Below, piece by piece: positions 11,694 to 29,296 of a DNA stretch of 33,770 bases. The notes under the pieces are model-generated. The model searched no databases and was not told the DNA's origin. It saw only the letters and a list, made by a program, of their open reading frames with translations. The stretch comes from an uncultured Fibrobacteraceae bacterium (lineage in GTDB: Bacteria > Fibrobacterota > Fibrobacteria > Fibrobacterales > Fibrobacteraceae), in contig CAZIMU010000002.1 in assembly GCA_964540355.1 (NCBI GenBank), positions 1 through 33,770 of the forward strand, given 5' to 3'. Position 1 is the first letter of the stretch, and the number at the start of each line of letters is the position of its first letter. The position numbers and the translations under genes were made by a program.

Positions 11694-11699
11694 AGGTTA

Positions 11700-11710
11700 A
11701 ATATAGAAAA
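11700..11710 (-). promoter_or_regulatory. Exact TTTTCTATATT motif, 6 nt upstream of ATG 11693
   Basis: Exact 11-mer on the minus strand with no SD before the ATG. Confidence 0.45.
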
Positions 11711-11724
11711 TTTGTCTGATTTTG

Positions 11725-11881
11725 CATTTACTTGCATAGTAATGTCTAGCGAAGGGCACCATTATTGGTTTTTTTTTCAAAAAAATGCACATTCTTGCAA
11801 ACAGTTGTTGGCAAAATAACGATTTCAGGATTTTTTTTCCCGTTTTTTACGTCTAATAGGTAACGAAGAAAAAAACGGAGG
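11725..11881 (+). repeat. Shared ~160-bp leader/promoter module, copy 1 (upstream of the Rpn-family gene)
   Basis: Hand alignment to the reverse complement of 29050-29209 gives roughly nine-tenths identity from CATTTACTTGCATAGTA through ...TAGGTAACGAAGAAAAAACGGAGG. The match includes the SD. Confidence 0.8.
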
Positions 11882-11889
11882 ATTCAAAA

Positions 11890-12696
11890 ATGACCGAAGT
11901 CAAAATAAATCGCAATCACAAGGATAGCGTGTTCACAATGCTATTCAGCGAGCCACCTGCAGCACTGGAACTATACAATGCAGTGACGGGGCAAAACTAC
12001 CCGCCAGACACCAAAATTGAGATAGTGACTCTTTCAAACGCCATATTCAAAGGGCAATTGAACGACGTGGCTTTCGTGGTGGACGACAGGCTTGTAGTCC
12101 TGATGGAACACCAGTCATCCATCAATAACAACATACCGCTTAGGATGCTTATGTATTTGGGGAGGGAATACGAGCGAATAACTAAGGGCAAGGATTTGTA
12201 TAGAGAGAAGCTGATAAAAATCCCTGCACCGGAATTCATAGTTCTGTACAACGGTAAAGACGAGTTTCCCGATTTCAAGGAGCTTAGGCTTTCCGATTCT
12301 TTTAAAACCAAAGGCAAGGGCAATCTTGAGCTTGTCGCAAGCGTTTACAACATCAACAAGGGTCGCAATGCAGAGATAGCCAGTAAGAGTCCTGTTTTGA
12401 ACGGCTACAACGAGCTTATAGCGGAAATAAACAAGAATCGCCAGACGATGGAACTTGCGGAAGCTATAGAAGTTGCTATAAAGAGTTGTGTGAAGCGTAA
12501 CATTTTAGTATATTTCCTAGAGAAGCACGCTTCGGAGGTTTTGAATATGCTTTTTACTGAATGGAACCTTGACGATGCCCTTGAGGTTGCGAAGGAAGAG
12601 GCCCAGGATGAGTTGTTTGCTCTATGGGAAAGTGGCATTTCCGTGGCGGAAGCCAAGGAAATACTCCGCAAACAAACCCGCACAGCAACTGCATAG
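11890..12696 (+). CDS. Rpn-family recombination-promoting nuclease / PD-(D/E)XK putative transposase
   Basis: Contains HKDSVFTMLFSEP, NDVAFVVDDRLVVLMEHQSSINNNIPLRML.Y (D...E.Q nuclease core) and IPAPEFIVLYNG. GGAGG SD lies upstream. Confidence 0.85.
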   Translation: MTEVKINRNHKDSVFTMLFSEPPAALELYNAVTGQNYPPDTKIEIVTLSNAIFKGQLNDVAFVVDDRLVVLMEHQSSINNNIPLRMLMYLGREYERITKGKDLYREKLIKIPAPEFIVLYNGKDEFPDFKELRLSDSFKTKGKGNLELVASVYNINKGRNAEIASKSPVLNGYNELIAEINKNRQTMELAEAIEVAIKSCVKRNILVYFLEKHASEVLNMLFTEWNLDDALEVAKEEAQDELFALWESGISVAEAKEILRKQTRTATA

Positions 12697-12720
12697 CGGG
12701 ATTTTACCCCCTTGCGGGGG
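12685..12720. repeat. 36-nt repeat with a CCCCC-N4-GGGGG hairpin, copy 1 (inverted partner at 28323-28358)
   Basis: GCAACTGCATAGCGGGATTTTACCCCCTTGCGGGGG matches the reverse complement of 28323-28358 at 35 of 36 positions. The single mismatch is in the loop. Confidence 0.9.
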
Positions 12721-12727
12721 CTTTTTA
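12707..12727 (+). terminator. Probable intrinsic terminator of the Rpn-family gene
   Basis: CCCCC TTGC GGGGG followed by CTTTTT. Confidence 0.55.
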
Positions 12728-12745
12728 GAAAGCACAAAAAATTTA

Positions 12746-15700
12746 CTAATAGCAATCGGATCGCATTTGTGGAGTTCCTGTTTTAGATGTAACAGACAGC
12801 CATGCACCATTCGTACCAGCAGGACAAGCATTGGATTCGCAAAGTGCTACTGTACTTGATGTACATGATATAGATTTGGAAGAGCCATTGCTACAATATA
12901 TGGTGCCACTCAAAGTACTAGCATTATTGGTATTATTGTAAATTTTAAGAGGAAGATTATTATTTGTAGTACACTGATTTGTCAAATTTAAGCAATCCCC
13001 TACGGAGGGATTAGTATTATTACCAAAAGTGCTTCCAGCACCACACGTTCCTCCTCCACCGCCAGAGCTAGATGAAGCCGCTACTATGGTAATATCCCCA
13101 CATGATACCTCACCGTTGACAACTTGGTTATCACACTTGACATTTGATACAGTTATGGTGCTTGTTCCCACTGAAGTATAATATGTTGTATATGTTTCTA
13201 ATGCGGCATTATTACCGCTGCTGTTTCTCCAGTTATTTGAGTTCATTGGAGAAATTCCAGTTATATTGAAATTCGCATTGGTTTTATCGCGGGTACCGTT
13301 GGAACAAGAGATAACTATTTGAATAGGCTCTTGAACTTGATATGTACGTGGGCTAAATGCGCAAGTTATTGATGGACCCGATGAGTTGCTACTCGGCGCA
13401 CTGCTAGAACTGCTTACGGTTGGGGTGCTTCCGCCGCCGCTACCGCAATTTATGGAACCGGATGTATAGGTAAAATTGCTTATCCATGAGCCAACATACA
13501 CATAATAACCACCATCTTTCTTAGCAGTTAAAAGGCTTGGGCAACTTGCATTTCCCGCAGATCCGGCAGCCCACGACTGACCACATGCAAATTCGGAATT
13601 ATTGTTAGGCGTGATCACCGTGCCATTTACCGTGAGGCTAGCACCCTGCATCTTAGAAATATCCCTTACAAAGAAACAATTTCCAGAGGTGGGGTTGCTT
13701 GGCGGAGCAGGAACGTTCTGAGCTTTAGTGTAGTCGCCATTGCACCAGCTGGCATTATACGCACACGCCGCCGCACTGCTCAGTGGCACGGCTGAGGAGG
13801 AACTGCTTGCCCGCGAACTGCTAGACACAGAATTGCTGCTTGGGCAAGTGGTGGCACCAGTGGTAAGAGAACCTTCGCAAAGCATTCCGCTTTTTTCGTT
13901 TGACATCCTACCAAGTATTATTGGATTTCCATCGCAATTAATTCTGAACATATAAACATAAGCATTAGTTCTAGCACTAATAGTTTGGGTAGTTGTTGGG
14001 GTAAAGCCAACCCAAGCGTTATTTGAAGATAGATTTCCACCATTGGCGGCGGTATATCTGAAACTGGAATCAATTGTAATGGTAGCTTCGCCGCCGTACC
14101 CGCAACCGTATTCTATGGCTGAGAATGGTATGGAAGTGCCCGTGAAACAAGTTTGGGCTACGCGGCACCAAGGAGCGTAATCGCAATTACTGAATGCATC
14201 AACAGAGCCACACTTTATTCCATTGAAATCGCCATCTGTGCCAAAAGTAAGACGCTCTCCATCGCAGCGAATATCATACATATAAATATCTCTCTCTGCG
14301 CCCTCGCTACCAAATTTATGAGGTTCAGGAGGACTGCGATTCCACTTGACATCGGTTGGTGAAATTCTTTTATATCCACCATTACTAGCAGCATTACCTT
14401 GCCAAGAGGTGTATTTGAATTTAGCAGCTGTGGCTTCGGAATTGCGATCGCCACCGCAGCCGTATTGCGGAACTGGTATGGCGTAATCGTAACAGCCACC
14501 GGAGACATAGCACCAAGGGGCGTAAGAGGCACTTGAAAGGGAATAACCTGAGTCAGAACTGCCACCGCCGCCACCGCCACTACTTGAACTCGCTTTGCTT
14601 GAACTGCTTTTGCTTGAACTGCTTATAACAGCGGATGAGCCTGGTGGTGGGTCGTCTGAGATAGCTCCAGAATGTATTTGCAAAAAGAATGGACTTATCT
14701 TGGTGTTGTTAAATACGCACTCGTAAATGCCGTCTTCTGGAGCAGCTGGGTTATAGCTTCCACAATTGTCTGGCGGCCCAAAAGTCGGCTTTGGTTCATT
14801 TGAGGGGTAATTCAAATATAGGAAGTTGTAATAGTCTTTTAAACTAGTAATGCTGGGTTTATCAGTTTTTTTGAAACGGAGAATTCGGGGCATAACTAAA
14901 ACAGAAGCTTCAATTTTATTCTCGCTGTTTTCCTTTTCTTTGCTGATGTATTTGCTTTCCAAGTCAACCCTTAAACGTGGGCTAAGTGGAACAAAGAAAT
15001 TATCATATATCGGAGGAATACTGCTCGGAGGTAGCTTGCAACCGGTTGAATCGGGGAATGCGCAATTTCTTCCACCTTCCTCGTACATACATAAAACTCC
15101 TTGTTCCATTAGCTCTTTAACAAATTCGGAGTTGCTCTCAGTTGTTAAAAATCCATTTCCTTGAGCGTTAACATGATTCATAACCGCACATTTATTCATA
15201 AAAATATTGCCGTGCAGTTTTCTACTGTCTGTTGCATCAAATTGATTTATATCTCCATCGCTGAAAATAAAATAATTGTAATCATCGCATTTATTGGATT
15301 TACTGCAAGATTTACCTTTTGGAGTACCGGCAAGCTCAATTCTGCCCGGGAAACCATTTGGCAAATAAAGCATAACCTCTACCCCTTTTGCGGTTGGGGG
15401 AAGATAGAGATAACATTGCTGCCCATTGAGGTTGCAAGCGGATAATTCATATATAATTATGTATTTGCCAGATGTTATGGTGCCTGGGTTAGGGTTTCCG
15501 CCCCACTTGCTTGCATACTGTTTTATATCTTGATTAGTACTCGCAGGCTCATCTTTTACATAGACTACCAACCATTCGTTCCACTTACGCTCTGCGGGTT
15601 TATTTTTTGTATCATTATAGCAATTTTGAAGGTCGCTGCCAATATCTCTTGGAGGGTAAGAGGGAAAGGCAAGCTCCATAAGTTTGGGGTTGCCTCCGCA

Positions 15701-17224
15701 GTAGCTCGATAACTCCCAGCCGCATCTAGCTGTGGTCTCGCAACTGCCGGGTTTATCTTTTCTATGTACCCAGTCACTCGGATTAGTTTTTTTAGCTTCG
15801 TCATAAATAGTGGTATCAAATTGTATGGGAGGATTTGCGCAACTTAGAGTGTCATCAGAAAGTTTATCTTTCAAGTGCTTCAATGTATCTGCGTACCAGT
15901 GGGATTTAGGAGTGCAAGATGCTTGAACATTTGTGGCTTTGGTACGAATTTGAATGTTGTTGTTATCTTTAAAGCAAGCCGCAGATGGGGCTGTGGAACA
16001 ATACGAGGGCGCACTAGAAGTAATTTTTGTCATATTCCCTGGTACGCAAACAGTATCGGTTGTTTTACTGCCAAGGAATGGAACGGGCTTTGATATTCCA
16101 TCACTAGGAATTGTGCCTGTCAAGGCATTTTTAATATACGCATTTCCATAAACCGCAAGAGAATCGGTGTTATTTTGGGCAGTTCTTGTAAGGGTAATGG
16201 TTCCAGCATCCATAACTAAATTTTTTGCAACACTAAAACCTAAACCACCTCCGCCACTATTTGTCCAATATTTAAAATTTCCCTGAATAGTGCTATTTCC
16301 GCCTATTGATACTACTCCGCCACTAGCTTGTCCAGCACAACCACCAGTTCCGCCAGTGGCACCGTTATTTATGCTCTCGTTGGGATTTACTCCGCCTTTC
16401 AAATAAGCGTCTCCAGTGATATTTATAGCACCTTTAGGATGAAATTCTTTTTCCACATATAAATTGCCTCTTATATTATCATTGCTTAGGGAGCCAGTTG
16501 AGCAAAAATCAAAATCGCCTGTGGAATATACATCTCCATAAACATCTATGCCATGATTTGCATAATAATTTCCATCTAAAACCAAATAACCAGGTTTTGC
16601 TGCACTTCCTATTTTAATCGAATTTAAAGCTTGACCACCTTTGTTTTTAATTGCCACGTCTTGGGTTACAACCGCTCTCGCTGATTCTATCTCGTTCACT
16701 GTTCCCATATTTCCCCAAAAGTCTTCATCGTAGTCTGGGCATAATGTTTTTTTTGTTTGAGACCCTTGAAAAGCCAGTTTGTATAAGCCATTCACGCTGT
16801 AAATTGCAGTTTGCTGTACTTTTGAGCCATCTCTGCCCACGCCAATGCTTTGGAATTTCAATTTGATTTTGCTTTTGTTAGACGTGTCTATGCCTGTTAG
16901 GTACACTCTATAGTATATGTTGTTAGGGTTGTTGTTTAAGTTTCCCAGCACATTATTGTTATTATTTGTTAGTTCATAAGCTTTTTTATTGTTTGCTGTT
17001 GAATAAAAATTCTTTACCACTGCGCCCACATCAGGTGCTTTGTAAGAAAGCCAAGCGTAAACGGCATCTAAGCCGGCTTCGCTCGCCTGATACGCCTCGC
17101 TCTGTTTTAAGCGGCTACCGCTTGCAAAGTTTTCAGAGCCAATCCATTTATACACAACCACACCTGCCGTGGTTGCCGCAAGCATAAACATCAAAACAGC
17201 GATTAAAGAAATACCGCGTTTCAT
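12746..17224 (-). CDS. Giant (1492 aa) PilX/GspK-N-terminal-like pseudopilin fusion; putative pilus-tip adhesin, left paralog
   Basis: N-terminus MKRGISLIAVLMFMLAATTAG (PilX_N-like hydrophobic helix without a G-F cleavage motif). ATGA overlap with the upstream PilW-like gene. Gly-rich repeat core, Ser/Gly linkers and Cys-bracketed C-terminal modules. The first ~850 aa are paralogous to 23060-28237. Confidence 0.8.
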   Translation of the reverse strand: MKRGISLIAVLMFMLAATTAGVVVYKWIGSENFASGSRLKQSEAYQASEAGLDAVYAWLSYKAPDVGAVVKNFYSTANNKKAYELTNNNNNVLGNLNNNPNNIYYRVYLTGIDTSNKSKIKLKFQSIGVGRDGSKVQQTAIYSVNGLYKLAFQGSQTKKTLCPDYDEDFWGNMGTVNEIESARAVVTQDVAIKNKGGQALNSIKIGSAAKPGYLVLDGNYYANHGIDVYGDVYSTGDFDFCSTGSLSNDNIRGNLYVEKEFHPKGAINITGDAYLKGGVNPNESINNGATGGTGGCAGQASGGVVSIGGNSTIQGNFKYWTNSGGGGLGFSVAKNLVMDAGTITLTRTAQNNTDSLAVYGNAYIKNALTGTIPSDGISKPVPFLGSKTTDTVCVPGNMTKITSSAPSYCSTAPSAACFKDNNNIQIRTKATNVQASCTPKSHWYADTLKHLKDKLSDDTLSCANPPIQFDTTIYDEAKKTNPSDWVHRKDKPGSCETTARCGWELSSYCGGNPKLMELAFPSYPPRDIGSDLQNCYNDTKNKPAERKWNEWLVVYVKDEPASTNQDIKQYASKWGGNPNPGTITSGKYIIIYELSACNLNGQQCYLYLPPTAKGVEVMLYLPNGFPGRIELAGTPKGKSCSKSNKCDDYNYFIFSDGDINQFDATDSRKLHGNIFMNKCAVMNHVNAQGNGFLTTESNSEFVKELMEQGVLCMYEEGGRNCAFPDSTGCKLPPSSIPPIYDNFFVPLSPRLRVDLESKYISKEKENSENKIEASVLVMPRILRFKKTDKPSITSLKDYYNFLYLNYPSNEPKPTFGPPDNCGSYNPAAPEDGIYECVFNNTKISPFFLQIHSGAISDDPPPGSSAVISSSSKSSSSKASSSSGGGGGGSSDSGYSLSSASYAPWCYVSGGCYDYAIPVPQYGCGGDRNSEATAAKFKYTSWQGNAASNGGYKRISPTDVKWNRSPPEPHKFGSEGAERDIYMYDIRCDGERLTFGTDGDFNGIKCGSVDAFSNCDYAPWCRVAQTCFTGTSIPFSAIEYGCGYGGEATITIDSSFRYTAANGGNLSSNNAWVGFTPTTTQTISARTNAYVYMFRINCDGNPIILGRMSNEKSGMLCEGSLTTGATTCPSSNSVSSSSRASSSSSAVPLSSAAACAYNASWCNGDYTKAQNVPAPPSNPTSGNCFFVRDISKMQGASLTVNGTVITPNNNSEFACGQSWAAGSAGNASCPSLLTAKKDGGYYVYVGSWISNFTYTSGSINCGSGGGSTPTVSSSSSAPSSNSSGPSITCAFSPRTYQVQEPIQIVISCSNGTRDKTNANFNITGISPMNSNNWRNSSGNNAALETYTTYYTSVGTSTITVSNVKCDNQVVNGEVSCGDITIVAASSSSGGGGGTCGAGSTFGNNTNPSVGDCLNLTNQCTTNNNLPLKIYNNTNNASTLSGTIYCSNGSSKSISCTSSTVALCESNACPAGTNGAWLSVTSKTGTPQMRSDCY

Positions 17225-18489
17225 AAACCCCCCGTTGCCGTTGCTTCTATTCCATTGTTAGGAGTTGGAATAACCATTTCAACACTGCCAACCTCTTTTT
17301 CTTTTCCTCTTTTAACTTTCAAATTGAGCTTAAATGCTTTCACATTTTTTTTATCTGCGGTCGGTGGTGTATAATTGGTATTTGTAAAGTTATAGGCTTT
17401 ATCATTTTTTTGCATTACTTTAAAATCTTCAATTTTTAAAGTACCATTGGATGCCTTGCTAGGATTGTAAAAAGAAAATTCAAATGCTATGCAGATATCT
17501 TGTGATGCGGGAACAGAAAATTCCATATAGTGATTTTCCGCATCGCTATCGCTTGTTTGCGGGGGCCAAAACATGAATCTTTTGAATACACTGTCTAAGT
17601 CTGTATATTTTGCGAGCCCTACTGCAATATGATCTTTTCCTGGCTGGAAAAAAGCCATATCATCAGGAACACCGTTATTTTTACTAATAGGCGTTCTGAA
17701 TTGAATTGCATAAACTGTGTCTTTTTTAAAATTGAATTTATGGCAAGCATTAGGACTTGTATTTGAGGCTCCAACTAGAATTTGGTTTAGATTTTTTTGA
17801 CCAGCACTATTATTTACAAAACCACTTATTTTGTTATCTGAGCTTATACCAGGAGAACTAAGTTGCTTAACTTGATTTTGGTTTCCACGGTCTATTAGTT
17901 TGAATGTTGACTCTCCAGCTTTTGGAAATAAAATATTTGGGATTACTGGTGTGCTTTCCAGCAAGGTGAATTTCTCCACTCCGGTAGCCATTGCAAGCGA
18001 ATCGGGACATTCGTCTTTGCTAATACTAGCAGATTTGGGGCATTTTGTATCGTCAAGTTGTTCGCATCTGCGCCAAAGACTGCTGTCTGGTTTTACTTCC
18101 CAAGTTATTTTCAACACTGCGCTGCAAGTTCCATCGTCCTTGTAATGTATCTTGTGGAATATAAGCTTGTGAAAATTAGCATTGCTTTTATCCAAATTGT
18201 AAGAGCTTGAATCAGGTTGGGGGGTTGCGGTTAAATTGTAGTAAACTTTTTCGGCTATCAAAAAATTATCGGTGGTATTATTGACTTTCCAGCTTTTGGC
18301 ACCCAACTGAGAAATATCTTCTTTTAGGATTGCTGCCACTTTATTGACTTCCTCTGTTGCTTTTGTCATATTTTGGGTTCTAACCCTCATGCTGGTGGAA
18401 TCGCTAAAAGCACGGCCTGCAACGATTATTATAAAACTCATTATCGCCATATACACAAGAAGCTCTATAAGTGTAAATGCTTTTTTCAT
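17221..18489 (-). CDS. PilW/GspJ-like minor (pseudo)pilin, left paralog
   Basis: MKKAFTLIELLVYMAIMSFIIIVAG is a prepilin N-terminal cleavage/methylation motif. ATGA overlaps at both ends. Confidence 0.85.
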   Translation of the reverse strand: MKKAFTLIELLVYMAIMSFIIIVAGRAFSDSTSMRVRTQNMTKATEEVNKVAAILKEDISQLGAKSWKVNNTTDNFLIAEKVYYNLTATPQPDSSSYNLDKSNANFHKLIFHKIHYKDDGTCSAVLKITWEVKPDSSLWRRCEQLDDTKCPKSASISKDECPDSLAMATGVEKFTLLESTPVIPNILFPKAGESTFKLIDRGNQNQVKQLSSPGISSDNKISGFVNNSAGQKNLNQILVGASNTSPNACHKFNFKKDTVYAIQFRTPISKNNGVPDDMAFFQPGKDHIAVGLAKYTDLDSVFKRFMFWPPQTSDSDAENHYMEFSVPASQDICIAFEFSFYNPSKASNGTLKIEDFKVMQKNDKAYNFTNTNYTPPTADKKNVKAFKLNLKVKRGKEKEVGSVEMVIPTPNNGIEATATGGL

Positions 18490-19435: not shown

Positions 19436-19454
19436 AACTGCCGCGCTGGCAGTT
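19436..19454. repeat. Perfect 7-5-7 palindrome AACTGCC-GCGCT-GGCAGTT; candidate recombinase core site (left) and/or terminator hairpin
   Basis: Read directly from the sequence. It overlaps the recombinase stop codon and abuts the TTG of the FimT-like gene. 19436-19450 is a 15/15 inverted match to 20554-20568. Confidence 0.6.
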
Positions 19455-20421: not shown

Positions 20422-20508
20422 AAAAGCCCTCCTGATTTGAATTTTTGTCCAGAAAATAATATATATTTATATATGAAGGACATTTTGATTTTTGCGTGTG
20501 GAGTAAAC
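20422..20508. promoter_or_regulatory. AT-rich divergent control region between the recombinase and the right FimT-like gene
   Basis: 87 bp containing AATAATATATATTTATATAT, the SD for the recombinase (minus strand) and a GGAG SD 5 nt before ATG 20509. No experimental support is available. Confidence 0.4.
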
Positions 20509-23050: not shown

Positions 23051-23059
23051 GGAGGTTTT

Positions 23060-26000
23060 ATGAAACGCGGTATATCCCTAATAGCTGTTTTGATGTTCAT
23101 GCTTGCCGCTACCACGGCGAGCATAGTCATTTTCCGTATGCTCAGTTCGGAAAATTTCTCCAGCGGAGCGAGGCTCAAAGCAAGCGAGGCTTACAAAGCA
23201 AGTGAAAGCGGCATAGATGCGGTGCATAGCTGGCTGGCAAACCGCGGTGTAGAAGCGGCTGAATTGGTTACTCAATATATGAATCAATCAACTAGATACC
23301 CTTTGAAGATAAACTACGGTGACCCTAATGTTTTTGAAGCTTATGTTATTGGAGCGGATGCTTCGGGTGGAAATGGCAAACCCGTGAGATTGAAAATTCT
23401 TGTGGAAGGCAAGGGAAGAGATAAATCTGTAGTTAGCCAAACAGCAATACTAAAAGTGAGCGGATTGTATAGAACATCAATAAACCCTATAGGCGACATT
23501 CCTGAATCGGATCCGGACGATGTAGATGATCCGCCGCCGCAGGATAATTGTACGCCAACACCTAACCCAGAACCGCCAGTATGCCAGGCAGATCCAATCA
23601 AACCACCATCAACTGGGAAATGCGCTCTCCCTGATTTATGGGGTAATATGGCAACGGTGGGTAGAATAGACGCTAGGACAATGATTATAACCCAAACAAC
23701 TGACGAGTGCAACGGTGGCGGCCAGGGTCTCAATTCCATTAAAATAGGCAAACCTGATTCAGCTGGTTATTTGATACTAGACGGAAATTTTTACGCAAAT
23801 AATGGTATAAATATTTATGGAGATTTGTACGCAAATGGAGCATTTTTTATGTGCGCAAGCGGTAGTGATTGGATAAAAAAAGACAGAAACGGCAAAGGTG
23901 GCAATTTATATGCTAAAGAGTTTCATCCCATGGTTTCCTTTGGTACTCTACTCATTGAAGGCTCGGCATATTTTGCGGATAGTGTGAATCCCAATGTTTT
24001 GCCTAAAAGAGTTTGCAATCCGGCTGGCGGAAATGCACAGCTTGGCTGCCTAGGTGCTTTAGGCGGAGCTGTAAATATTAAAGGCAATACCACTATTAGG
24101 GGACCATATTTTGCTTATACAGGTAACATTTTTTATCAAAACGACTGGCAAAATTGGGGTGGCAATTTGAATTTTAATATGGAAGGTAACTTGGTTATGG
24201 ATAATGTTTCTCATATGAGTTTAAATTATGAAGATAAGGACAATACTTCCTCCAGCAAATTTGAAGTAAAGCAAAATGCGTATGTTAAACAATTTACTAC
24301 CAATCAAAGTCAGAATAAAAATAATGATTCTAAATCTGGGCTTTGGCCTACATTTAATAATTTGTGTTTGGGCGTTGATTATGATGGAACTAAACCGAAT
24401 TATTCCCAAAAGGGTTCAAATCCAAAATTTAATTTTAAAGCAAATGGTACAATAGGGAAGTGCAATGCTAATGCGAGCTGGGGTGCAGATGAGTTGAAAA
24501 ACTTAAAAGAGGAGCTAGAGCTTTCAGGAAACATGACACAGAGCTGCCAGAGACCTCCAGTAAAATTTGATATGAAGATTTATAATGAGGCAAAAAAAAC
24601 TACTCCTGCGAAATGGGTACATAGGGATAACCAGCCTGGGGGATGCGCCTCTGGTTCTGGGCAAATGAATCTATCAAAGGAATGGTCACCTTTATTGACC
24701 GAACTTAATACGTGCTGGAAGAGCAAGAAGTCAGACGAAATTTACAAGAATGACCCAAGCGACAAAAATGAATGGATTGTTATTTATATAAAAGATAATT
24801 ATAATTTTCAAAGAGTTAATGGAAATCTGGGCGATGGCAAATATATTATAATATTTGATTTTGAAAAAAAAATTCCGTTTGACCCTGCTAACCCATACGG
24901 TATCCAATATTTATATCTCCCGCCAACTGGTAAAAATGCAATCGTTATGCTTTATTTTCCCAAAGGTTTTAATGGTAGAATTGAACTAGATGGAAATGAA
25001 AGTGGAAAAATAGCACAGCAATCGGAGTATAACTATTTTATTTTTAGCGATGCAGATATAAGGGAATTTAACACGACAGCAGATAGATTTTTACACGGAA
25101 ATGTTTTTATGAACAACTGCGCAAAGATAAATTTGCCAAGTTCTGCAACCAACCCATATTTTTACTCCAGAGGCAACGATGCCTTTGTGGACCAACTGAT
25201 GGAGTCTAACATTTTATCTGCCACCGAACACTGCCGTAACTTCACCAGCGATAACAATAACACCAATATAACATACACGCTCGAATGTACTTCTCCTCCA
25301 GAAAAAGGCTTTGTGGGCGAGGCAATAAAACCGCCAACAGTTACCTGTAAAGGTTCCAACGGCATATCCAAAACTTGCGGTTTTGATTGGGTGAATGCAC
25401 CGAGTTGGAGTTGTCCTCAGGAAGGTACATATAATGTAGGAGTAAAGGCAAATGCAAACTCAGGAAACTGTCAAAATAGTTCACCTGTTCAGTGCGGTAA
25501 AAATATTACCTTAACAATATCCAAACCGCAGAACACCACTCTCACTTGCAAGGGATTGCCTAAAAAAGGCAAGGTAGGTGAAGAAATAAGGAAGCCAAAA
25601 GTTAGATGCGGCGGCCAAACGATTGAAAGCGGTTTCTCTTTTATGGGGATGGAGGAGCCAAATTGGAAAAATCCTGTGGAGGGTTCATACACTGTAAGTG
25701 TAAAGGCAACCTCTGGAACTTGTAGTCCTAAGATCGAAGAATGCGGTACATTAACAGTGACAAAAGACGAGCCTATAGACAATAAAAATGAACCTTGGAT
25801 ACCAATATCCAGCCGCCTTGCGGTAAAGTTGGAAAGCAAGGAAATAAGCAAACAAAGAATAGACGATAGAGGTCATGATGATAATAAACTTGCTAAGTCA
25901 ATACTTGTAATGCCTCGCGTGGTGCGCATATTGGAATCGGACCCTGTTATCTCACGTAAATATATCCGCAATCGTTATTCATATATGTATATGAATGGAG

Positions 26001-28237
26001 CAAAAAATGCAGACACAGCAGCAGCAGAGCAGCTGGAATGTGTAAGTACCGCTAACGGTAAAAATTTGTTTACCGAGGAGCTTCAAAAAGATGTTTATGT
26101 ATGCAGCTTCAGAACTCCCAAAGTAAAACATTCGTCTTTCTACGTGGCTATAGGGGCAGACGCATGTAAAGACTGCGGTTCTAGCGGTGTAGCAGAATGT
26201 ATCCTTACTCCAACAAAAGATAATAAGAATATATATACCCACGGCAGGAATATATCGCCAAGCATTAAGTGCAATGACAAATCCACACCCACCAATACTG
26301 TTTTTGAGGCTGTATTCGGACCTCCGCTTACCAAAGACCTGAGCGGAAACTACTACTATTCCGGTCCCGAAGCATACGACAATGCAATAATATCGGCTTC
26401 TGGAAAGTGCGGCTCAAAAGATTTTGAGGGACTATGCTACTCCTTAGTTAACAGCGAGCGTGATTACACCATTGAAGTAAATAGACCTACTTGTACTATG
26501 GAGCGTGGACCGCATGAATCTAAATGCCCCCAAGCCAACCCGTACGACTGCAAAGTTGAGACCGCATGCGGCGGTACAGCAGAGAAATGTTGTTGTACTA
26601 ATATTTCGCCGGTATATGCTCCAACACACGATTGCGGAACTGCAACCAAAGATGGTCCGCCACGTTACCCGAAATTCAATTATTCCCCTGAAAATGATAT
26701 AGGACTAACTGGAAATATAGATAACATTAAATGGAATGAGGACCCGCCAAAACCTCATAATTTTAATACTATTGGCTTGAATAGAGTGACTCGTATGTAC
26801 CAAGTTTGGTGCGGCGGTCATGAGTTAAATTATGGTACAAAGAACGGCAAAGATGGAGTAAATTGTGGTTCTTTTGATGTTATTAAAGAAGGTACTAGCG
26901 GCAACTACAAGCCAAATCTTGCTGCTTGCGAAAGCAAGGTTTCTTCTTGCTCTATCAATGCTTGTCAAAAGAGAGGCGTTGGCATACCGCCTCCAACATT
27001 CACTTGCAAAGATGGTTCTCCTAACTATGTAAAATTCAGATATAGCGATGTCAGCAAACCTGGGCAATTATCAACAACCATTCCCGAGAAATGGAATAAT
27101 GGCGAATATCAATCATTCACATCCGATGGAAAGAGAGACGTTTTTATACAAGAAATTAAGTGCGGTGATGAACTCCTTAAGTGTAGCTCCGGTAGCGTTA
27201 CCGATCTAGGGCTTCCGTGTGGTTTTGTTGATATAAAAAACGATTGTGCTTCTAGTGTTACTGCCACTTGTAAGTTGGTGACTAAAAGTGGTACTGAGGT
27301 AAGCGACTTAGCTGTGACGCAAGGCGAAAACATTAAAGCGCCAAAAATAACCTGCTCCGATGGTTCAACCCCAAGCTGGCCGACTTTCGGCTCAACGGGT
27401 TCGGGTTTGCCTAGTGGTGCTGCCAGCAACTGGCCGGATAATGGAAATGCTTATTACACAGCTGCACATGATACTGGTTCCTATACAATTTCTGTATCTA
27501 GCGTTAATTGCGGTGCAACCACTGTAAGCAACATAACTTGCGGAACCATTAACGTGCAAAGGCCAATCTGTTCCATCAGCGGTACTTACACTTACGTTAA
27601 TTCTAGTACTCCAAACGTACCAGCTCCAACATACAGTTGCGGAAACGCTACCAAAACAACTGGCACTAACGTAAACGAGTTCAAATATACAGATGCTAAT
27701 GGCGCAACTGTCTCAGGAACAGCCACTACCAATTGGAACAATAATCCTCCATCAAACATGATGATTACAGCAAGAGCCAACGCTGATGTTTATATGTACA
27801 AAGTAACTTGTGACGATAATACCTTAACTTATGGCACAAGCAATACTTCAAAAGATGGAATAAAATGTGCTGGTTCTTTTAGCGTAGTAAGCAGCAGCAC
27901 CAGTGGAAGCGGCAGTTCTAGTGCGAGCGGTGGAGGAACTAATATTACGCTTTCTACTTCGGAAACCACTTTAAATTATGGCACAACTTATACAGTTACT
28001 TGCAGTGATACAAATAAGGATATTGTTTGTAAAAATGCCTGTAGTAATATGCAGGTTTGCTACAAATACAATGGAGGATCTGAAAACTGCGTAAATGGAA
28101 ATAGTACTATATTTAGTATTATCAATGGAAAATTGAATGACCAGTTTAATCAAAAATGTGCAAATAATGCCACAATCCAGATTATGAGTACCCCAGCTTG
28201 TAGTATAACGTGTAAAAACAATAATACTTATTATTAG
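23060..28237 (+). CDS. Giant (1725 aa) PilX/GspK-N-terminal-like pseudopilin fusion; putative pilus-tip adhesin, right paralog
   Basis: AGGAGG SD. N-terminus MKRGISLIAVLMFMLAATTAS is identical over 20 aa to the left paralog. The core is conserved (YLILDGNFYAN, PPVKFDMKIYNEAKK, YNYFIFSDADI, ILVMPRVVR) and the Cys-rich C-terminal modules differ. Confidence 0.8.
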   Translation: MKRGISLIAVLMFMLAATTASIVIFRMLSSENFSSGARLKASEAYKASESGIDAVHSWLANRGVEAAELVTQYMNQSTRYPLKINYGDPNVFEAYVIGADASGGNGKPVRLKILVEGKGRDKSVVSQTAILKVSGLYRTSINPIGDIPESDPDDVDDPPPQDNCTPTPNPEPPVCQADPIKPPSTGKCALPDLWGNMATVGRIDARTMIITQTTDECNGGGQGLNSIKIGKPDSAGYLILDGNFYANNGINIYGDLYANGAFFMCASGSDWIKKDRNGKGGNLYAKEFHPMVSFGTLLIEGSAYFADSVNPNVLPKRVCNPAGGNAQLGCLGALGGAVNIKGNTTIRGPYFAYTGNIFYQNDWQNWGGNLNFNMEGNLVMDNVSHMSLNYEDKDNTSSSKFEVKQNAYVKQFTTNQSQNKNNDSKSGLWPTFNNLCLGVDYDGTKPNYSQKGSNPKFNFKANGTIGKCNANASWGADELKNLKEELELSGNMTQSCQRPPVKFDMKIYNEAKKTTPAKWVHRDNQPGGCASGSGQMNLSKEWSPLLTELNTCWKSKKSDEIYKNDPSDKNEWIVIYIKDNYNFQRVNGNLGDGKYIIIFDFEKKIPFDPANPYGIQYLYLPPTGKNAIVMLYFPKGFNGRIELDGNESGKIAQQSEYNYFIFSDADIREFNTTADRFLHGNVFMNNCAKINLPSSATNPYFYSRGNDAFVDQLMESNILSATEHCRNFTSDNNNTNITYTLECTSPPEKGFVGEAIKPPTVTCKGSNGISKTCGFDWVNAPSWSCPQEGTYNVGVKANANSGNCQNSSPVQCGKNITLTISKPQNTTLTCKGLPKKGKVGEEIRKPKVRCGGQTIESGFSFMGMEEPNWKNPVEGSYTVSVKATSGTCSPKIEECGTLTVTKDEPIDNKNEPWIPISSRLAVKLESKEISKQRIDDRGHDDNKLAKSILVMPRVVRILESDPVISRKYIRNRYSYMYMNGAKNADTAAAEQLECVSTANGKNLFTEELQKDVYVCSFRTPKVKHSSFYVAIGADACKDCGSSGVAECILTPTKDNKNIYTHGRNISPSIKCNDKSTPTNTVFEAVFGPPLTKDLSGNYYYSGPEAYDNAIISASGKCGSKDFEGLCYSLVNSERDYTIEVNRPTCTMERGPHESKCPQANPYDCKVETACGGTAEKCCCTNISPVYAPTHDCGTATKDGPPRYPKFNYSPENDIGLTGNIDNIKWNEDPPKPHNFNTIGLNRVTRMYQVWCGGHELNYGTKNGKDGVNCGSFDVIKEGTSGNYKPNLAACESKVSSCSINACQKRGVGIPPPTFTCKDGSPNYVKFRYSDVSKPGQLSTTIPEKWNNGEYQSFTSDGKRDVFIQEIKCGDELLKCSSGSVTDLGLPCGFVDIKNDCASSVTATCKLVTKSGTEVSDLAVTQGENIKAPKITCSDGSTPSWPTFGSTGSGLPSGAASNWPDNGNAYYTAAHDTGSYTISVSSVNCGATTVSNITCGTINVQRPICSISGTYTYVNSSTPNVPAPTYSCGNATKTTGTNVNEFKYTDANGATVSGTATTNWNNNPPSNMMITARANADVYMYKVTCDDNTLTYGTSNTSKDGIKCAGSFSVVSSSTSGSGSSSASGGGTNITLSTSETTLNYGTTYTVTCSDTNKDIVCKNACSNMQVCYKYNGGSENCVNGNSTIFSIINGKLNDQFNQKCANNATIQIMSTPACSITCKNNNTYY

Positions 28238-28259
28238 ACCTTTCTACACCATTCCCCTA

Positions 28260-28279
28260 CCCTCATTTCTTTTTGAGGG
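28260..28279 (+). terminator. Weak candidate intrinsic terminator after the right giant gene
   Basis: CCCTCA, an 8-nt loop, then TGAGGG, followed by a T-rich stretch. The stem is short, so confidence is low. Confidence 0.3.
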
Positions 28280-28294
28280 CTGTTTCTCATATTT

Positions 28295-28336
28295 TGCAAA
28301 TAAATGTGAAATTGGGGCAACGCCCCCGCGAGGGGG
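28295..28336 (+). repeat. 42-bp direct repeat flanking the RAYT cassette, copy 1
   Basis: TGCAAATAAATGTGAAATTGGGGCAACGCCCCCGCGAGGGGG matches 29198-29239 at 36 of 42 positions by hand alignment. Confidence 0.65.
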
Positions 28337-28358
28337 TAAAATCCCGCTATGCAGTTGC
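28323..28358. repeat. 36-nt hairpin repeat, copy 2 (inverted partner of 12685-12720)
   Basis: Lies 5 nt downstream of the RAYT stop on the minus strand. Contains CCCCC GCGA GGGGG. Confidence 0.9.
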
Positions 28359-28363
28359 GGGGT

Positions 28364-29044
28364 TCAATGTTTTTTTCCCCATGAAATTGGGTTATTGCGG
28401 ATGTATTTTGCAATTTTTGCATATTCTGCCTCATTGCGGATTATACGTTCATAATAATTGCGTTGCCATAATTTTTTATGAAATGGTTTCCATTTGAATG
28501 TTTTAACATTGGTTGCGTATTTGTTGGTTGTCATTGTTTTGAACCATTGGATTATTGTGCTTAATGGGATGTTGGTTGTACAAGGGCAGACACGTAGGTC
28601 TGCCCCTACGCGGTTGGACGTATCATTTATTGTTATTATCGCATGAATATGGTCTGGCATCACAATATATTCGTCAATTTTGATATGGAAAAATTTGTCT
28701 GTATTGTTTGTAATTTCCAAAATGTATTTTTCAATCATTTTTCCACAATCATTTAATACCATAACACCATTTTCAACCACGCCAAATGTCGGGAAATCAA
28801 AACCGTGGTTCATCGTCACCGAACCCGTCGTCGTAGTAGTAGTAGGGGCAGACCTACGTGTCTGCCCCTTTTGCCGCAAATAAATTTGCCCACGTCCAAA
28901 ATTGTTTTGCCCATTTGCCGCCAATGTTTGCATTTTCCGAATCCGTTGATTCAAACATATCGTAACAAAATACGCACCAGCCGCATAGTCATAACCACGC
29001 AAACGTATTGAATGTCTATCATGCCTATTGGGATTATATCCCAT
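28364..29044 (-). CDS. Y1 HUH transposase of the IS200/REP-associated (RAYT) type
   Basis: ATG 29044 follows GGAGG. MGYNPNRHDRHSIRLRGYDY..GAYFVTIC, the HUH motif PDHIHAIITI, and WQRNYYERIIRNE...YIRNNP with the catalytic Tyr region. The ORF-track start at 29164 runs into the shared leader and was rejected. Confidence 0.85.
   Translation of the reverse strand: MGYNPNRHDRHSIRLRGYDYAAGAYFVTICLNQRIRKMQTLAANGQNNFGRGQIYLRQKGQTRRSAPTTTTTTGSVTMNHGFDFPTFGVVENGVMVLNDCGKMIEKYILEITNNTDKFFHIKIDEYIVMPDHIHAIITINDTSNRVGADLRVCPCTTNIPLSTIIQWFKTMTTNKYATNVKTFKWKPFHKKLWQRNYYERIIRNEAEYAKIAKYIRNNPISWGKKH
28584..28605. repeat. GC-rich REP-like hairpin inside the RAYT ORF (GGGCAGAC-ACGTAG-GTCTGCCC)
   Basis: 8-bp stem read directly from the sequence. 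Translated in-frame as VGADLRVCP. Confidence 0.8.
28845..28868. repeat. GC-rich REP-like hairpin inside the RAYT ORF, inverted copy (GGGGCAGAC-CTACGT-GTCTGCCCC)
   Basis: 9-bp stem. It is the reverse complement of the 28583-28606 copy at 23 of 24 positions and is translated in-frame as GQTRRSAP. Confidence 0.8.
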
Positions 29045-29049
29045 ATCTA

Positions 29050-29209
29050 CCTCCGTTTTTTCTTCGTTACCTATTAGACGTAAAAAACGCGGAAAAAAAT
29101 TCAGAAATCGTAATTTTGTCAACAACTGTTTGCAAGAATGTGCATTTTTTTGAAAAAAAACCAATAATGATGCCCTTCGCTAGCCATTTGCATACTATGC
29201 AAGTAAATG
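29050..29209 (-). repeat. Shared ~160-bp leader/promoter module, copy 2 (upstream of the RAYT gene)
   Basis: Its reverse complement aligns with 11725-11881 up to and including the SD. Confidence 0.8.
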
Positions 29210-29239
29210 TGAAATAGGGGCAATGCCGCCGCTAGGTGG
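29198..29239 (+). repeat. 42-bp direct repeat flanking the RAYT cassette, copy 2 (degenerate hairpin)
   Basis: TGCAAGTAAATGTGAAATAGGGGCAATGCCGCCGCTAGGTGG. Confidence 0.65.
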
Positions 29240-29276
29240 TTTTATTATTTTGCAAATAAATACAAAATCGGCAAAT

Positions 29277-29287
29277 TTTTCTACATT
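29277..29287 (+). promoter_or_regulatory. TTTTCTATATT-family motif (TTTTCTACATT), 9 nt upstream of the pheA ATG
   Basis: One mismatch to the 11-mer and no SD. Confidence 0.4.
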
Positions 29288-29296
29288 AACCCACAA

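What the first reader, a model, noticed from the sequence alone, without database searches (positions are those of the whole stretch)
11694..29296. Nested mirror architecture: the island is capped by inverted cassettes with the same leader and 3' hairpin but unrelated nuclease/transposase genes
Reading inward from each end, the order is the same. First comes a ~160-bp leader (11725-11881 versus the reverse complement of 29050-29209, roughly nine-tenths identical by hand, including the SD). Next comes an ORF. Then comes a 36-nt repeat with a CCCCC-N4-GGGGG hairpin (12685-12720 versus 28323-28358, 35 of 36 identical, inverted). After that sit the convergent giant adhesin genes. The ORF between the conserved ends is an Rpn/PD-(D/E)XK putative transposase on the left and a Y1/RAYT transposase on the right, two unrelated folds. 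In copy 1 the 3' repeat includes the last codons and the stop of the Rpn gene. In copy 2 it begins 5 nt after the RAYT stop. One expression-and-termination frame carrying swapped cargo suggests a modular repeated element or a shared regulatory module. Together with the central inverted sites, it gives three concentric inverted-repeat pairs around the pilin locus.
Basis: seen in the sequence. Interest (0 to 1): 0.65.

Follow-up and report, generated by a model that had tools for sequence, protein, structure and literature searches.

The report
Shared promoter module capping an adhesin island
The two inverted "caps" are real, but their shared leader is a multi-copy promoter-type module used by many unrelated genes in these termite-gut Fibrobacterota, their shared hairpin is the terminator of the neighbouring giant-protein operons, and the right cap looks like an Rpn nuclease gene whose coding region was replaced by a RAYT transposase gene.

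Summary
The leaders are 90.7% identical over about 160 nt, and the 3' repeat matches at 35 of 36 positions, inverted. The ORFs are unrelated: an Rpn-type PD-(D/E)XK nuclease on the left and a Y1/RAYT on the right.

- **Leader.** The proximal ~115 nt is a sharply bounded module present in tens of copies. It precedes at least 8 unrelated gene families in Fibromonadaceae. Its palindromic core, TTTGCAAACA-NN-TGTTTGCAAA, occurs across Fibrobacterota.
- **3' repeat.** It consists of the last Rpn codons and stop, a 10-nt spacer, and a GC hairpin. That hairpin follows giant-protein genes in four other islands, so it is the arm terminator, not a cassette end.
- **Right cap.** The Rpn codons survive, non-coding, behind the RAYT stop. 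The right cap is therefore an Rpn cassette with its ORF replaced.
- **Island.** It spans about 11712-29276 and consists of two old paralogous pseudopilin/giant-protein operons around a tyrosine recombinase. One relative lacks it precisely. Another has it at the same site with different caps.
- **Recurrence.** Inward-facing Rpn-like caps recur in other islands.

The result is a large "mobile promoter"-type family plus a chimeric cassette. It is moderately interesting, and the mechanism is inferred.

The parts
10848..11693 (-). Flanking core gene: a fast-evolving lipoprotein, transcribed away from the island.
   Evidence: ORF. Homologues sit in the same position in L059 (36% identity) and L072 (47%). 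The next gene, 10551-10841, is 83% identical to the L059 neighbour.
11712..29276 (.). The island: everything between the conserved flank sequences ...ATATAGAAAAT and TTTTTCTACATT...
   Evidence: The empty site in L059 has the lipoprotein gene and pheA 36 nt apart. The same boundaries are seen in L072 and L081.
11713..11777 (+). Distal leader of the left cap. It includes one copy of the motif ATTTyryATTTAyTTGCA at 11719-11736. At 90% identity or more it is essentially specific to the two caps.
   Evidence: Depth is about 2x single copy in four metagenome runs. Alignment; motif scan.
11778..11881 (+). Generic leader module, left copy. It runs from the A-run/TGCAC through the palindromic core (11795-11817) and the T-rich stretch to ACGTCTAAT and the GGAGG Shine-Dalgarno (11877-11881).
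   Evidence: nhmmer score 98 bits against the profile of leader copies. Sharp 5' and 3' limits appear in a 19-copy alignment. Depth is 50-90x the flanks.
11890..12696 (+). Rpn-type PD-(D/E)XK nuclease gene, 268 aa. It has an internal in-frame ATG at 12547 behind GGAGG (12534-12538), which would give a 49-aa C-terminal protein.
   Evidence: PF04754 at 21.3 bits against a cutoff of 21. There are 1729 homologues, many named Rpn family. Translation. The internal start was read.
12685..12720 (+). 3' repeat, left copy: the last four Rpn codons plus stop (12685-12696), a 10-nt spacer (12697-12706), and the GC hairpin CCCCCTTGCGGGGG (12707-12720) followed by CTTTTT.
   Evidence: (terminator-like hit).
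12746..19435 (-). Left arm: a giant secreted protein (12746-17224) and three N-methyl pseudopilin-like genes (17221-18489, 18486-18929, 18914-19435).
   Evidence: These are paralogous to the right arm at 33-55% amino-acid identity.
19414..20590 (-). Central segment: a tyrosine recombinase gene (19453-20421) between the inverted repeats 19414-19460 and 20544-20590.
   Evidence: PF00589 at 6e-13. Inverted repeat I9. Related recombinases lie in either orientation relative to the L-type arm in other loci.
20554..28237 (+). Right arm: three pseudopilin-like genes (about 20554-21102, 21087-21584, 21581-23050) and a giant protein (23060-28237).
28260..28315 (+). The right giant gene's own terminator-like hairpin (28260-28279), followed by one copy of the ATTTCACATTTATTTGCA motif (28295-28312 on the - strand).
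28323..28358 (-). 3' repeat, right copy: a non-coding Rpn tail GCAACTGCATAG (28347-28358), the spacer, and the hairpin CCCCCTCGCGGGGG (28323-28336). No T-run follows on either strand.
28364..29044 (-). RAYT-type Y1 (HUH) transposase gene, 226 aa. It contains two in-frame palindromes, at 28584-28609 and 28842-28867.
   Evidence: PF01797 at 3.8e-10. NF047646 at 60.5 bits, below its cutoff of 80. The HUH motif and tyrosine align to 4ER8. Palindromes.
29050..29152 (-). Generic leader module, right copy. Palindromic core at 29113-29135, Shine-Dalgarno at 29050-29054.
   Evidence: nhmmer score 102 bits..
29153..29275 (-). Distal leader of the right cap, carrying a 53-nt extra piece. It contains a degenerate hairpin (29225-29240) and two further copies of the motif (29198-29215, 29251-29268). 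Together with 28288-28337 this forms a 50-nt direct repeat around the RAYT cassette.
   Evidence: Direct repeats D2/D3. Alignments. Motif scan.
29297..30139 (+). Flanking core gene: prephenate dehydratase (pheA), transcribed away from the island.
   Evidence: PF00800 at 3e-56. Orthologues at 81-95% identity.

Best explanation
The region is a 17.6-kb accessory island. It is built from two old, divergently transcribed paralogous operons, each with three pseudopilin-like genes and one giant secreted protein, around a central tyrosine recombinase. Each operon ends in a GC hairpin terminator.

Outside each hairpin, facing inward, sits a small accessory-gene cassette. Each cassette is expressed from a ~115-nt leader.

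That leader is not cassette-specific. It is a lineage-wide, multi-copy promoter/5'-UTR module made of a palindromic site, a T-rich stretch, ACGTCTAA and GGAGG. In Fibromonadaceae it drives many unrelated genes, most often PD-(D/E)XK nucleases of three families and RAYTs.

The left cap is an ordinary member of a hugely expanded Rpn family. By analogy with E. coli Rpn, it is probably a toxic nuclease with an internal C-terminal antitoxin.

The right cap began as a sister of the left cap. It shares the same distal leader, the same Rpn last codons, the same spacer and the same hairpin. Its Rpn coding region was then replaced by a RAYT gene.

The inferred route is as follows. The 5' crossover fell inside the leader that RAYT genes of this lineage also carry. 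The 3' junction is an illegitimate or microhomology join directly after the RAYT stop.

What is shown: the anatomy, the copy numbers, the comparative loci and the empty site. What is inferred: promoter function, the direction and mechanism of the swap, and the function of Rpn.
For: **The leader is generic.**
- The core TTGCAAACANTTGTTKRCAAAAT gives 40 hits in 185,579 species genomes. Of these, 36 are labelled Fibrobacterota, both Fibrobacter and Ca. Fibrimonadaceae. By my estimate about 0.3 hits would be expected by chance.
- In Fibrimonadaceae the whole ~115 nt is conserved with sharp limits. It lies in front of Rpn, PDDEXK_2, PDDEXK_3, RAYT, a small-peptide/105-aa pair, lipoproteins and others.
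- Its depth is 50-90x the unique flanks in four metagenome runs.
- RAYT relatives at other loci carry their own version of it.

**The hairpin belongs to the arms.**
- CCCCCnnnnGGGGG directly follows giant-gene stops in L065, L066, L071 and L072.
- In L072 it abuts pheA with no cap at all.

**The tail is Rpn coding sequence.**
- GCAACTGC(A/G)TAG ends Rpn paralogues in L001, L007 and L032.
- Outside Rpn genes it is found only behind the window's RAYT.

**The two caps are specifically related.**
- The distal leader and the hairpin region are at about 2-copy depth.
- Cap flanks are 91-97% identical, whereas arm proteins are only 33-55% identical.

**The island behaves as a unit.**
- L059 has the small membrane protein (83%), the lipoprotein, pheA (86%) and ribBA (89%) with only 36 nt where the island sits.
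- L072 (pheA 95%, ribBA 97%) has the island at the same boundaries. It has no pheA-side cap, and on the other side a leader-driven, internally deleted PDDEXK_2 gene.

**Inward Rpn-like caps recur.**
- L066 has one at one end. L065 has them at both ends, and the first 230 nt held at each contig end are 98-99% identical between the two, inverted.
Against: - No transcript data could be found, so promoter and terminator functions are not shown.
- By eye, no convincing sigma-70, sigma-54, Bacteroidetes-type or ECF-type promoter could be fitted to the leader.
- The right hairpin has no T-run in either direction.
- The window is a metagenomic contig. The central 46 nt of the right leader is repeated and is not bridged by unitigs.
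- The exact 3' junction is ambiguous. Either 12 nt of Rpn tail remain, or about 21 nt with a 5-nt deletion.
- Copy number is estimated from metagenome depth, which includes related co-resident species.
- Why caps sit at both ends, always facing inward, is not explained by this account. Chance, selection and targeting cannot be separated with 5-6 partly related examples.
Confidence: 0.6

Rival explanations
1. Composite mobile element. The whole island moves as a unit. The two inverted caps would act like the IS copies of a composite transposon. The leader-containing terminal inverted repeats would be the ends, and the Rpn or RAYT protein would be the mobilising enzyme.
For: - The island is precisely absent in L059 and present in the window and L072 between the same flank sequences.
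- The inverted similarity of the two ends runs right up to the island boundary.
- L065 has near-identical inverted Rpn-like genes at both ends.
- The insertion point is the centre of a palindromic intergenic site.
Against: - L072 has the island at the same site with only one cap and different terminal sequences.
- L081 and L071 have toxin-antitoxin-like genes instead of a cap.
- The repeat that forms the ends is a generic promoter module found at dozens of non-island genes.
- No clear target-site duplication was found.
- Comparative work found no evidence that Rpn proteins transpose and no defined ends for rpn genes (PMC10400941).
Confidence: 0.1
2. Whole-unit inverted duplication. One cap plus one arm was duplicated in inverted orientation as a block. 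The caps stayed similar through gene conversion between the inverted copies while the arms diverged. The RAYT swap came later.
For: - The order is the same reading inward from each end.
- The arm genes are pairwise homologous.
- L065 shows the same mirrored layout, with caps far more alike than arms.
Against: - Arms at 33-55% amino-acid identity are much older than the split from L072 (pheA 95%), yet L072 lacks a pheA-side cap.
- The caps at the lipoprotein side differ in family between the window and L072.
- Arms are mosaics that differ between otherwise close loci. The ends are therefore remodelled independently of the arms.
Confidence: 0.15
3. Independent recruitment. Two unrelated genes separately acquired the same promoter module and similar terminators because of a shared regulatory need. 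There is no common cassette ancestor.
For: The leader is reused in front of many unrelated genes. GC hairpins of this type end several giant genes.
Against: The caps also share a distal leader segment and a 10-nt spacer at about 2-copy depth. The right cap carries 12 nt of Rpn coding end that has no function behind a RAYT stop.
Confidence: 0.07
4. Assembly artefact. The contig was mis-joined through the repeated leader, so the RAYT cassette is not really next to pheA.
For: The leader is highly repeated and unitigs break inside it, at 29085-29131. Several related contigs end inside repeated caps (L065).
Against: - Junctions on both sides of the repeated 46 nt are at the same single-copy depth in three runs.
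- The giant-gene/hairpin/tail/RAYT junction, which is the key observation, is bridged without mismatch by contigs of 865-3714 nt.
Confidence: 0.05

Closest known systems
Putative mobile promoters (Matus-Garcia, Nijveen & van Passel 2012; commentary PMC3575422)
   Same: Highly similar upstream sequence, at least 80% identical over at least 50 nt, lies in front of non-homologous genes in one genome. It is often linked to transposase-like genes, and the means of spread is unknown.
   Different: This family is unusually large (tens of copies) and long (~115 nt up to the Shine-Dalgarno). It has sharp limits and a palindromic core conserved across a whole phylum. At one orthologous site the gene behind it has been exchanged.
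Rpn (YhgA-like) recombination-promoting nucleases / RpnL-RpnS toxin-antitoxin genes (PMC5350276, PMC10400941)
   Same: - The protein is a PD-(D/E)XK type of the PF04754/TIGR01784 kind.
- The family is multi-copy and patchy.
- There are no defined element ends.
- The C-terminus is variable, with a possible internal start.
   Different: - The expansion is far greater (1729 homologues found, mostly termite-gut Fibromonadales).
- All copies are driven by one shared leader.
- Copies recur convergent to the terminators of an adhesin/pseudopilus island.
- No activity has been tested here.
REP-associated tyrosine transposases (E. coli TnpA_REP, PDB 4ER8)
   Same: The HUH motif and the C-terminal tyrosine align, and the size and domain agree.
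   Different: - No flanking REP/REPIN pairs were found.
- Two conserved palindromes lie inside the coding sequence instead.
- The gene sits in a borrowed Rpn frame.
- The score is below NCBIfam's equivalog cutoff.
Composite transposons such as Tn10 and Tn5 (from general knowledge)
   Same: A large segment is bounded by inverted copies of a small gene-bearing unit, and the whole segment shows presence/absence polymorphism.
   Different: - The bounding units are not IS elements.
- Their repeat is a promoter module.
- One orthologous island has a single cap.
- No target duplication is seen.
Recombinase-controlled inversion switches for surface structures, such as fim, shufflons and Bacteroides polysaccharide promoters (from general knowledge)
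   Same: A tyrosine recombinase lies between inverted repeats placed at the 5' ends of alternative surface-protein operons.
   Different: This concerns the centre of the island, not the caps. Inversion is inferred only from differing orientations among related loci.

Membership tests
Rpn / YhgA-like (PF04754, COG5464) | Significant match to the family model, or to named members | tested here: met
   PF04754 scores 21.3 bits against a gathering cutoff of 21, which is borderline. There is no NCBIfam hit. Homologues at 56-60% identity over the full length carry PF04754 and the NCBI name 'Rpn family recombination-promoting nuclease'.
Rpn / YhgA-like (PF04754, COG5464) | PD-(D/E)XK catalytic residues (RpnA D11, D63, E82, Q84, R94; PMC5350276) | tested here: inconclusive
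   Read by eye, the candidates are D12, D58 or D64/65, E72-H-Q74 and R84 (Q+10, as in RpnA). No formal alignment to RpnA was made.
Rpn / YhgA-like (PF04754, COG5464) | Internal translation start giving a small C-terminal protein (RpnS) | tested here: inconclusive
   An in-frame ATG at 12547 lies 8 nt after GGAGG, which would give 49 aa. A contig that fuses the leader directly to this part exists at single-copy depth. Translation was not tested.
RAYT / IS200-like Y1 transposase | HUH motif and catalytic tyrosine | tested here: met
   H132-I-H134 aligns to PEHMHCI. Y214 aligns to the tyrosine in DYIYINP of 4ER8. That this tyrosine is the nucleophile is from memory of the structure paper.
RAYT / IS200-like Y1 transposase | Score above the curated family cutoff | tested here: inconclusive
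   Pfam Y1_Tnp scores 40.4 against a cutoff of 23, which is met. NCBIfam REP_Tyr_transpos scores 60.5 against a cutoff of 80, which is not met. The shortfall is probably due to the inserted segments.
RAYT / IS200-like Y1 transposase | Flanked by cognate REP sequences, with REPs dispersed in the genome | tested here: not met
   The only matching palindromes lie inside the RAYT genes themselves, two per gene in 8 loci, and nowhere else in 81 loci. The flanking hairpins are the arm terminator and a degenerate copy, in direct order.
Putative mobile promoter | At least 80% identity over at least 50 nt upstream of non-homologous genes in one genome | tested here: met
   Within the window, 94% over 105 nt with unrelated ORFs. 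Six exact-core copies each occur in MAGs Nx346_bin46 and bin40, with different downstream genes.
Putative mobile promoter | Actual promoter activity | not testable with these tools
   No RNA runs hold the sequence. Consensus scans found nothing above shuffles.
Composite transposon / IS-bounded element | Defined terminal inverted repeats conserved between copies of the element | tested here: not met
   The ends are inverted repeats in the window. The orthologous island in L072 has different ends and one cap.
Composite transposon / IS-bounded element | Target-site duplication | tested here: inconclusive
   The junctions are A/T-rich. No clear duplication emerges when compared with the empty site.
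Integron gene cassette | Promoterless ORF with attC, next to an integron integrase | tested here: not met
   The caps carry their own leader. The recombinase scores 38 bits against a cutoff of 265 for integron integrase.
Structured RNA leader (riboswitch or similar) | Rfam match, or a stable conserved fold | tested here: not met
   There is no Rfam hit at gathering score, and nothing relevant at E<=5. Folding z-scores are -0.17 and +0.41. The T-run/A-run stem is broken in L034 and L054.
Intrinsic terminator | GC hairpin followed by a T-run | tested here: met
   The left copy passes the scan on the Rpn strand. In L072, L065 and L071 the same hairpin has an A-run before it and a T-run after it on the giant-gene strand. 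The right copy lacks a T-run.

The most novel reading that the evidence does not exclude
The shared leader and the short repeats that recur at cassette 3' ends may act as portable homology arms. These 3' repeats are the hairpin, the ATTTCACATTTAyTTGCA motif and the CAGAACCCCGATT repeat. On this reading they form a promoter-bearing cassette-exchange system in which ORFs are swapped behind a resident promoter. The Rpn-type nucleases, which sit at the edges of the hypervariable adhesin/pseudopilus islands, would supply the DNA breaks that drive both the cassette swapping and the mosaic diversification of the arms.
Probability: 0.12. Interest if true: 0.8.

Novelty: new variant of a known kind. 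Interest (0 to 1): 0.45.

Why it matters
If the leader is what it appears to be, it is one of the largest and best-delimited promoter-reuse families seen in a bacterial lineage. It comes from an uncultured, ecologically important fibre-degrading group.

It would give three things:
- a ready-made candidate for a strong, portable expression signal in Fibrobacterota;
- a candidate regulon tying together nuclease, defence-like and transposase-like genes;
- a natural example of a gene being exchanged behind a fixed promoter.

The recurrent placement of Rpn-type nuclease genes at the ends of a recombinase-centred, hypervariable surface-protein island also offers a concrete setting to ask what Rpn proteins do in their native hosts.

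Tried and rejected
- **Rfam.** The whole window at gathering score gave no hits. The left cap at E<=5 gave only chance-level CRISPR-DR21 and RsmY matches.
- **RNA folding of both leaders.** Neither folds better than shuffles, so a structured RNA leader was rejected.
- **Palindrome as an RNA or DNA hairpin.** Six of 19 copies carry two uncompensated changes in the right arm. I did not pursue covariation counting.
- **Promoter fitting by eye.** I tried sigma-70, sigma-54 (TGGCAC-N5-TTGC), the Bacteroidetes -33/-7 type and an ECF type (GAAT-N18-CGTC). None was convincing.
- **LexA/SOS box idea.**
  - TGCAC-N4-TTGCA in the leader resembles my memory of the F. succinogenes LexA box.
  - A palindrome-like site lies upstream of recA in L009.
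  - No lexA or recA was among the 40 exact genome hits, and no paper was found to check the box.
  - This remains an unverified lead.
- **Metagenome scan for the spacer plus hairpin.** Zero hits.
- **RNA-seq runs.** None available.
- **Search for inversion joints at the central repeats in Logan contigs.** None seen. Contigs drop minor variants, so this is not evidence of absence.
- **Literature on Fibrobacter promoter motifs.** Nothing found.


Full report
**1.

The repeat finder reports three inverted pairs: 11770-11874 / 29056-29160 (105 nt, 94%), 11741-11784 / 29145-29188 (91%), and 12685-12724 / 28319-28358 (40 nt, 95%). The 3' repeat aligns at 35 of 36. The 36-mer occurs exactly twice in the window and never in 100 shuffles.

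Similarity of the two ends continues outward, with a 53-nt insertion on the right, as far as the start codons of the flanking genes.

Contigs assembled independently from three public termite-gut runs bridge the following without mismatch:
- the right giant gene's end, the hairpin, the Rpn tail and the RAYT C-terminus;
- the RAYT N-terminus into the leader;
- the distal leader into pheA.

Only 46 nt of repeated leader is left unbridged.

**2. The two cargo genes**

*Left cap.* ORF 11890-12696 (+) matches PF04754 at the threshold. It has 1729 homologues, nearly all from termite-gut Fibromonadales. Many are called Rpn family recombination-promoting nuclease by NCBI. Read by eye, it has the D...E-x-Q...R pattern of RpnA. 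It also has an in-frame ATG at 12547, 8 nt after a GGAGG. This would give a 49-aa C-terminal product, like the RpnS antitoxins described for E. coli.

*Right cap.* ORF 28364-29044 (-) is a Y1 HUH protein. PF01797 matches at 3.8e-10. The REP-associated tyrosine transposase model hits below its cutoff. The HUH motif and the C-terminal tyrosine align to E. coli TnpA_REP.

**3. The leader is a lineage-wide module, not a cassette end**

*Distribution.* A scan of one genome per species (185,579 species) with the 23-nt core TTGCAAACANTTGTTKRCAAAAT gave 40 loci. Of these, 36 are labelled Fibrobacterota: rumen and horse Fibrobacter, and termite Ca. Fibrimonadaceae. By my arithmetic about 0.3 hits would be expected by chance. 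The core is a near-perfect palindrome, TTTGCAAACA-NN-TGTTTGCAAA.

*In Fibrobacter.* Only the palindrome and a T-rich stretch are shared between genes. The genes behind it include an ECF-type sigma factor in at least nine MAGs, PDDEXK_2 (Rpn-like) genes, an MmeI-type restriction-modification gene and secreted proteins.

*In Fibrimonadaceae.* The whole ~115 nt is conserved. It runs from an A-run/TGCAC through the palindrome and a T-rich stretch to ACGTCTAA and GGAGG. Both limits are sharp: sequence upstream of it and the ORFs behind it are unrelated. The ORFs include:
- Rpn (PF04754);
- PDDEXK_2 (PF12784/TIGR01784);
- PDDEXK_3 (PF13366);
- RAYT;
- a 27-31-aa peptide family followed by a 105-aa gene;
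- a 404-aa lipoprotein, a 796-aa secreted protein and a 146-aa protein.

*Copy number.* In four metagenome runs the proximal leader has 50-90 times the depth of the unique flanks. The Rpn coding region has 15-65 times.

*Summary.* RAYT relatives at other loci (P0122 at 81% identity, L024) carry their own versions of the leader. However, it is clearly enriched in front of nuclease and transposase-like genes.

No Rfam family matches, and neither leader folds better than shuffles.

**4. The 3' repeat has three parts with different histories**

*Rpn tail.* GCAACTGCATAG is the last four codons and stop of the Rpn gene. The same end closes Rpn paralogues in L001, L007 and L032. Behind the RAYT stop it is non-coding.

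*Spacer.* The 10-nt spacer is found only in the two caps.

*Hairpin.* CCCCCnnnnGGGGG directly follows the stops of giant-protein genes in four other islands (L065, L066, L071, L072). On the giant-gene strand it has an A-run before it and a T-run after it. In L072 it abuts pheA with no cap at all. The hairpin is therefore the bidirectional terminator of the arm, and a convergent cap gene simply shares it.

*Depth.* Depth over the right hairpin region and over the distal leader is about twice single copy. These parts are specific to the two caps. The caps are therefore related to each other beyond the generic leader.

**5. The island and its relatives**

*Arms.* The two arms are homologous gene for gene but old. 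Amino-acid identities between the pairs are:

| Left arm | Right arm | Identity |
|---|---|---|
| 1492 aa (giant) | 1725 aa (giant) | 37% |
| 422 aa | 489 aa | 33% |
| 173 aa | 221 aa | 55% |
| 147 aa | 165 aa | 38% |

. All three smaller genes of each arm carry N-terminal methylation motifs.

*Centre.* The central gene is a tyrosine recombinase between inverted repeats that lie at the 5' ends of the two operons.

*Related loci.* Searching metagenomes with the recombinase gave 22 loci. Wherever enough flanking sequence is held, they show the same layout. Their arms are mosaics of different types.

*Three loci share the window's flanks.*
- **L059** has the small membrane protein (83%), the lipoprotein (36%), pheA (86%) and ribBA (89%). 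Only 36 nt, itself a palindrome, lies where the island sits. This is an empty site.
- **L072** (prt 90%, pheA 95%, ribBA 97%) has the island at the same boundaries. It has no cap on the pheA side. On the lipoprotein side it has the same leader driving an internally deleted PDDEXK_2 gene.
- **L081** (and L071, with the same pheA neighbour) has a toxin-antitoxin-like gene pair on the pheA side.

The junctions between island and core genome are therefore hotspots where small accessory genes come and go.

*Recurrence of caps.* Inward-facing Rpn-like caps recur. L066 has one, separated from the giant gene only by the hairpin. L065 has one at each end, and the first 230 nt held at each contig end are 98-99% identical between the two, inverted.

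**6. Most likely account**

The mirror has two causes. One is an old inverted duplication of the operons around the recombinase. The other is a much younger pair of sister cassettes placed outside the two terminators. These arose by copying a cap from one end to the other, or by conversion between the ends.

The right cassette then lost its Rpn coding region to a RAYT gene. RAYT genes of this lineage carry the same leader, so a crossover anywhere in about 100 nt of 85-95% identity explains the 5' side. After GGAGG the sequence follows the RAYT relatives (TAnATATG).

The 3' junction lies within a few bases of the RAYT stop. It retains either 12 nt of Rpn tail, or about 21 nt with a 5-nt deletion.

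The direction of the swap (Rpn first) follows from the tail being conserved coding sequence in Rpn paralogues. Expression from the leader, termination at the hairpin, and the toxin/antitoxin nature of the Rpn gene are all inferences.

**7. Rivals**

*Composite mobile element.* The empty site and the terminal inverted repeats favour it. Against it stand the single-capped orthologous island with different ends, the generic nature of the repeat, the lack of a clear target duplication, and published evidence that rpn genes lack defined ends and probably do not transpose.

*Block duplication with conversion.* This overlaps with my account, but it fits poorly with the cap turnover seen between the window and L072.

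*Independent recruitment.* The shared spacer, distal leader and useless Rpn codons contradict it.

*Mis-assembly.* The bridged junctions make it unlikely.

**8. Comparison with what is known**

The leader fits the definition of putative mobile promoters. It is an unusually large, long and sharply bounded family with a phylum-wide core.

The left gene is an Rpn family member by homology. The right gene has the catalytic features of a RAYT but lacks flanking REPs. Instead it carries two conserved palindromes inside its own coding sequence.

I found no paper describing this leader, the palindrome, or the island type.

I rate it a new variant of known kinds. It is of moderate interest, and the mechanism is still inferred.

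Noticed in passing
window 28584-28609 and 28842-28867: The RAYT coding sequence contains two in-frame palindromes, GGGGCAGAC-N6-GTCTGCCCC, that are perfect reverse complements of each other (26 nt). The same pair is present in RAYT relatives at 64-81% identity (L009-L015) and nowhere else in 81 loci. A related hairpin encodes 'VGADLRACP' inside a small peptide in L037. They may be REP-like sites placed inside the enzyme's own gene.
   Followed up: partly
window 19414-20590: A tyrosine recombinase gene sits between inverted repeats at the 5' ends of the two divergent pseudopilin/giant-protein operons. In related loci the recombinase lies in either orientation relative to the same arm type: L060 and the window one way, L062/L064/L070 the other. 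This suggests an invertible switch that selects one of two surface-structure operons. No inversion joint was seen in assembled contigs.
   Followed up: partly
window 12534-12696; joint 11873->12502 in runs X1-X4: The Rpn gene has an internal Shine-Dalgarno and in-frame ATG that would give a 49-aa C-terminal protein. In four runs a contig at single-copy depth joins the leader directly to this C-terminal part, skipping 628 nt. That would be a leader-driven 'antitoxin-only' copy elsewhere. L072 and L023 likewise carry PDDEXK_2 genes that lack the nuclease core but keep the C-terminus.
   Followed up: partly
L025:3089-3214, L035:6384-6496, L037:3895-3974, L024:7819-7924: A conserved 27-31-aa peptide, MKK...NFVSLKEGQVWKAF, lies directly behind the leader. 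In the three loci checked (L025, L035, L037) a 105-109-aa gene (MESVLN...) with no Pfam family above threshold follows it.
   Followed up: no
L009:13170-13200: A palindrome related to the leader core, TTTTGTCAACAAATGTATGCAAAAC, lies about 95 nt upstream of recA. This hints that the palindrome could be a DNA-damage operator. However, no recA or lexA was among the exact genome-wide hits.
   Followed up: partly
L018 ~5072-5100, L052 ~2480-2500, L072:18362-18380, L081:7675-7700, L034, L032: A dispersed repeat, TGTCAGAACCCCGATT(y)nCCCnATTT, occurs next to several cassettes. In some places it is read as the start of a short ORF (MSNCQNPD...). A piece of it (GAACCCCG) lies at the RAYT stop/Rpn tail junction in the window.
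   Followed up: no
L059:1029-1064: The empty site between the lipoprotein gene and pheA is a near-perfect palindrome, AAATATAGAAAA-TTC-TTTTCTACATTT. The island sits at its centre, and each junction keeps one half. This could be a recombinase-type target or simply a symmetric divergent promoter region.
   Followed up: no
window 31401-31700 and 31752-32051: A 300-nt direct repeat at 75% identity lies inside ORF 31332-32111, downstream of ribBA. It is an internal duplication in a protein with no Pfam match.
   Followed up: no
L081:7710-8230 and L071:1090-2346: On the pheA side, where the window has the RAYT cap, L081 carries a small two-gene module of 90 and 93 aa that looks like a toxin-antitoxin pair. 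L071 carries several small genes there, one of which resembles the start of the L081 93-aa product.
   Followed up: no
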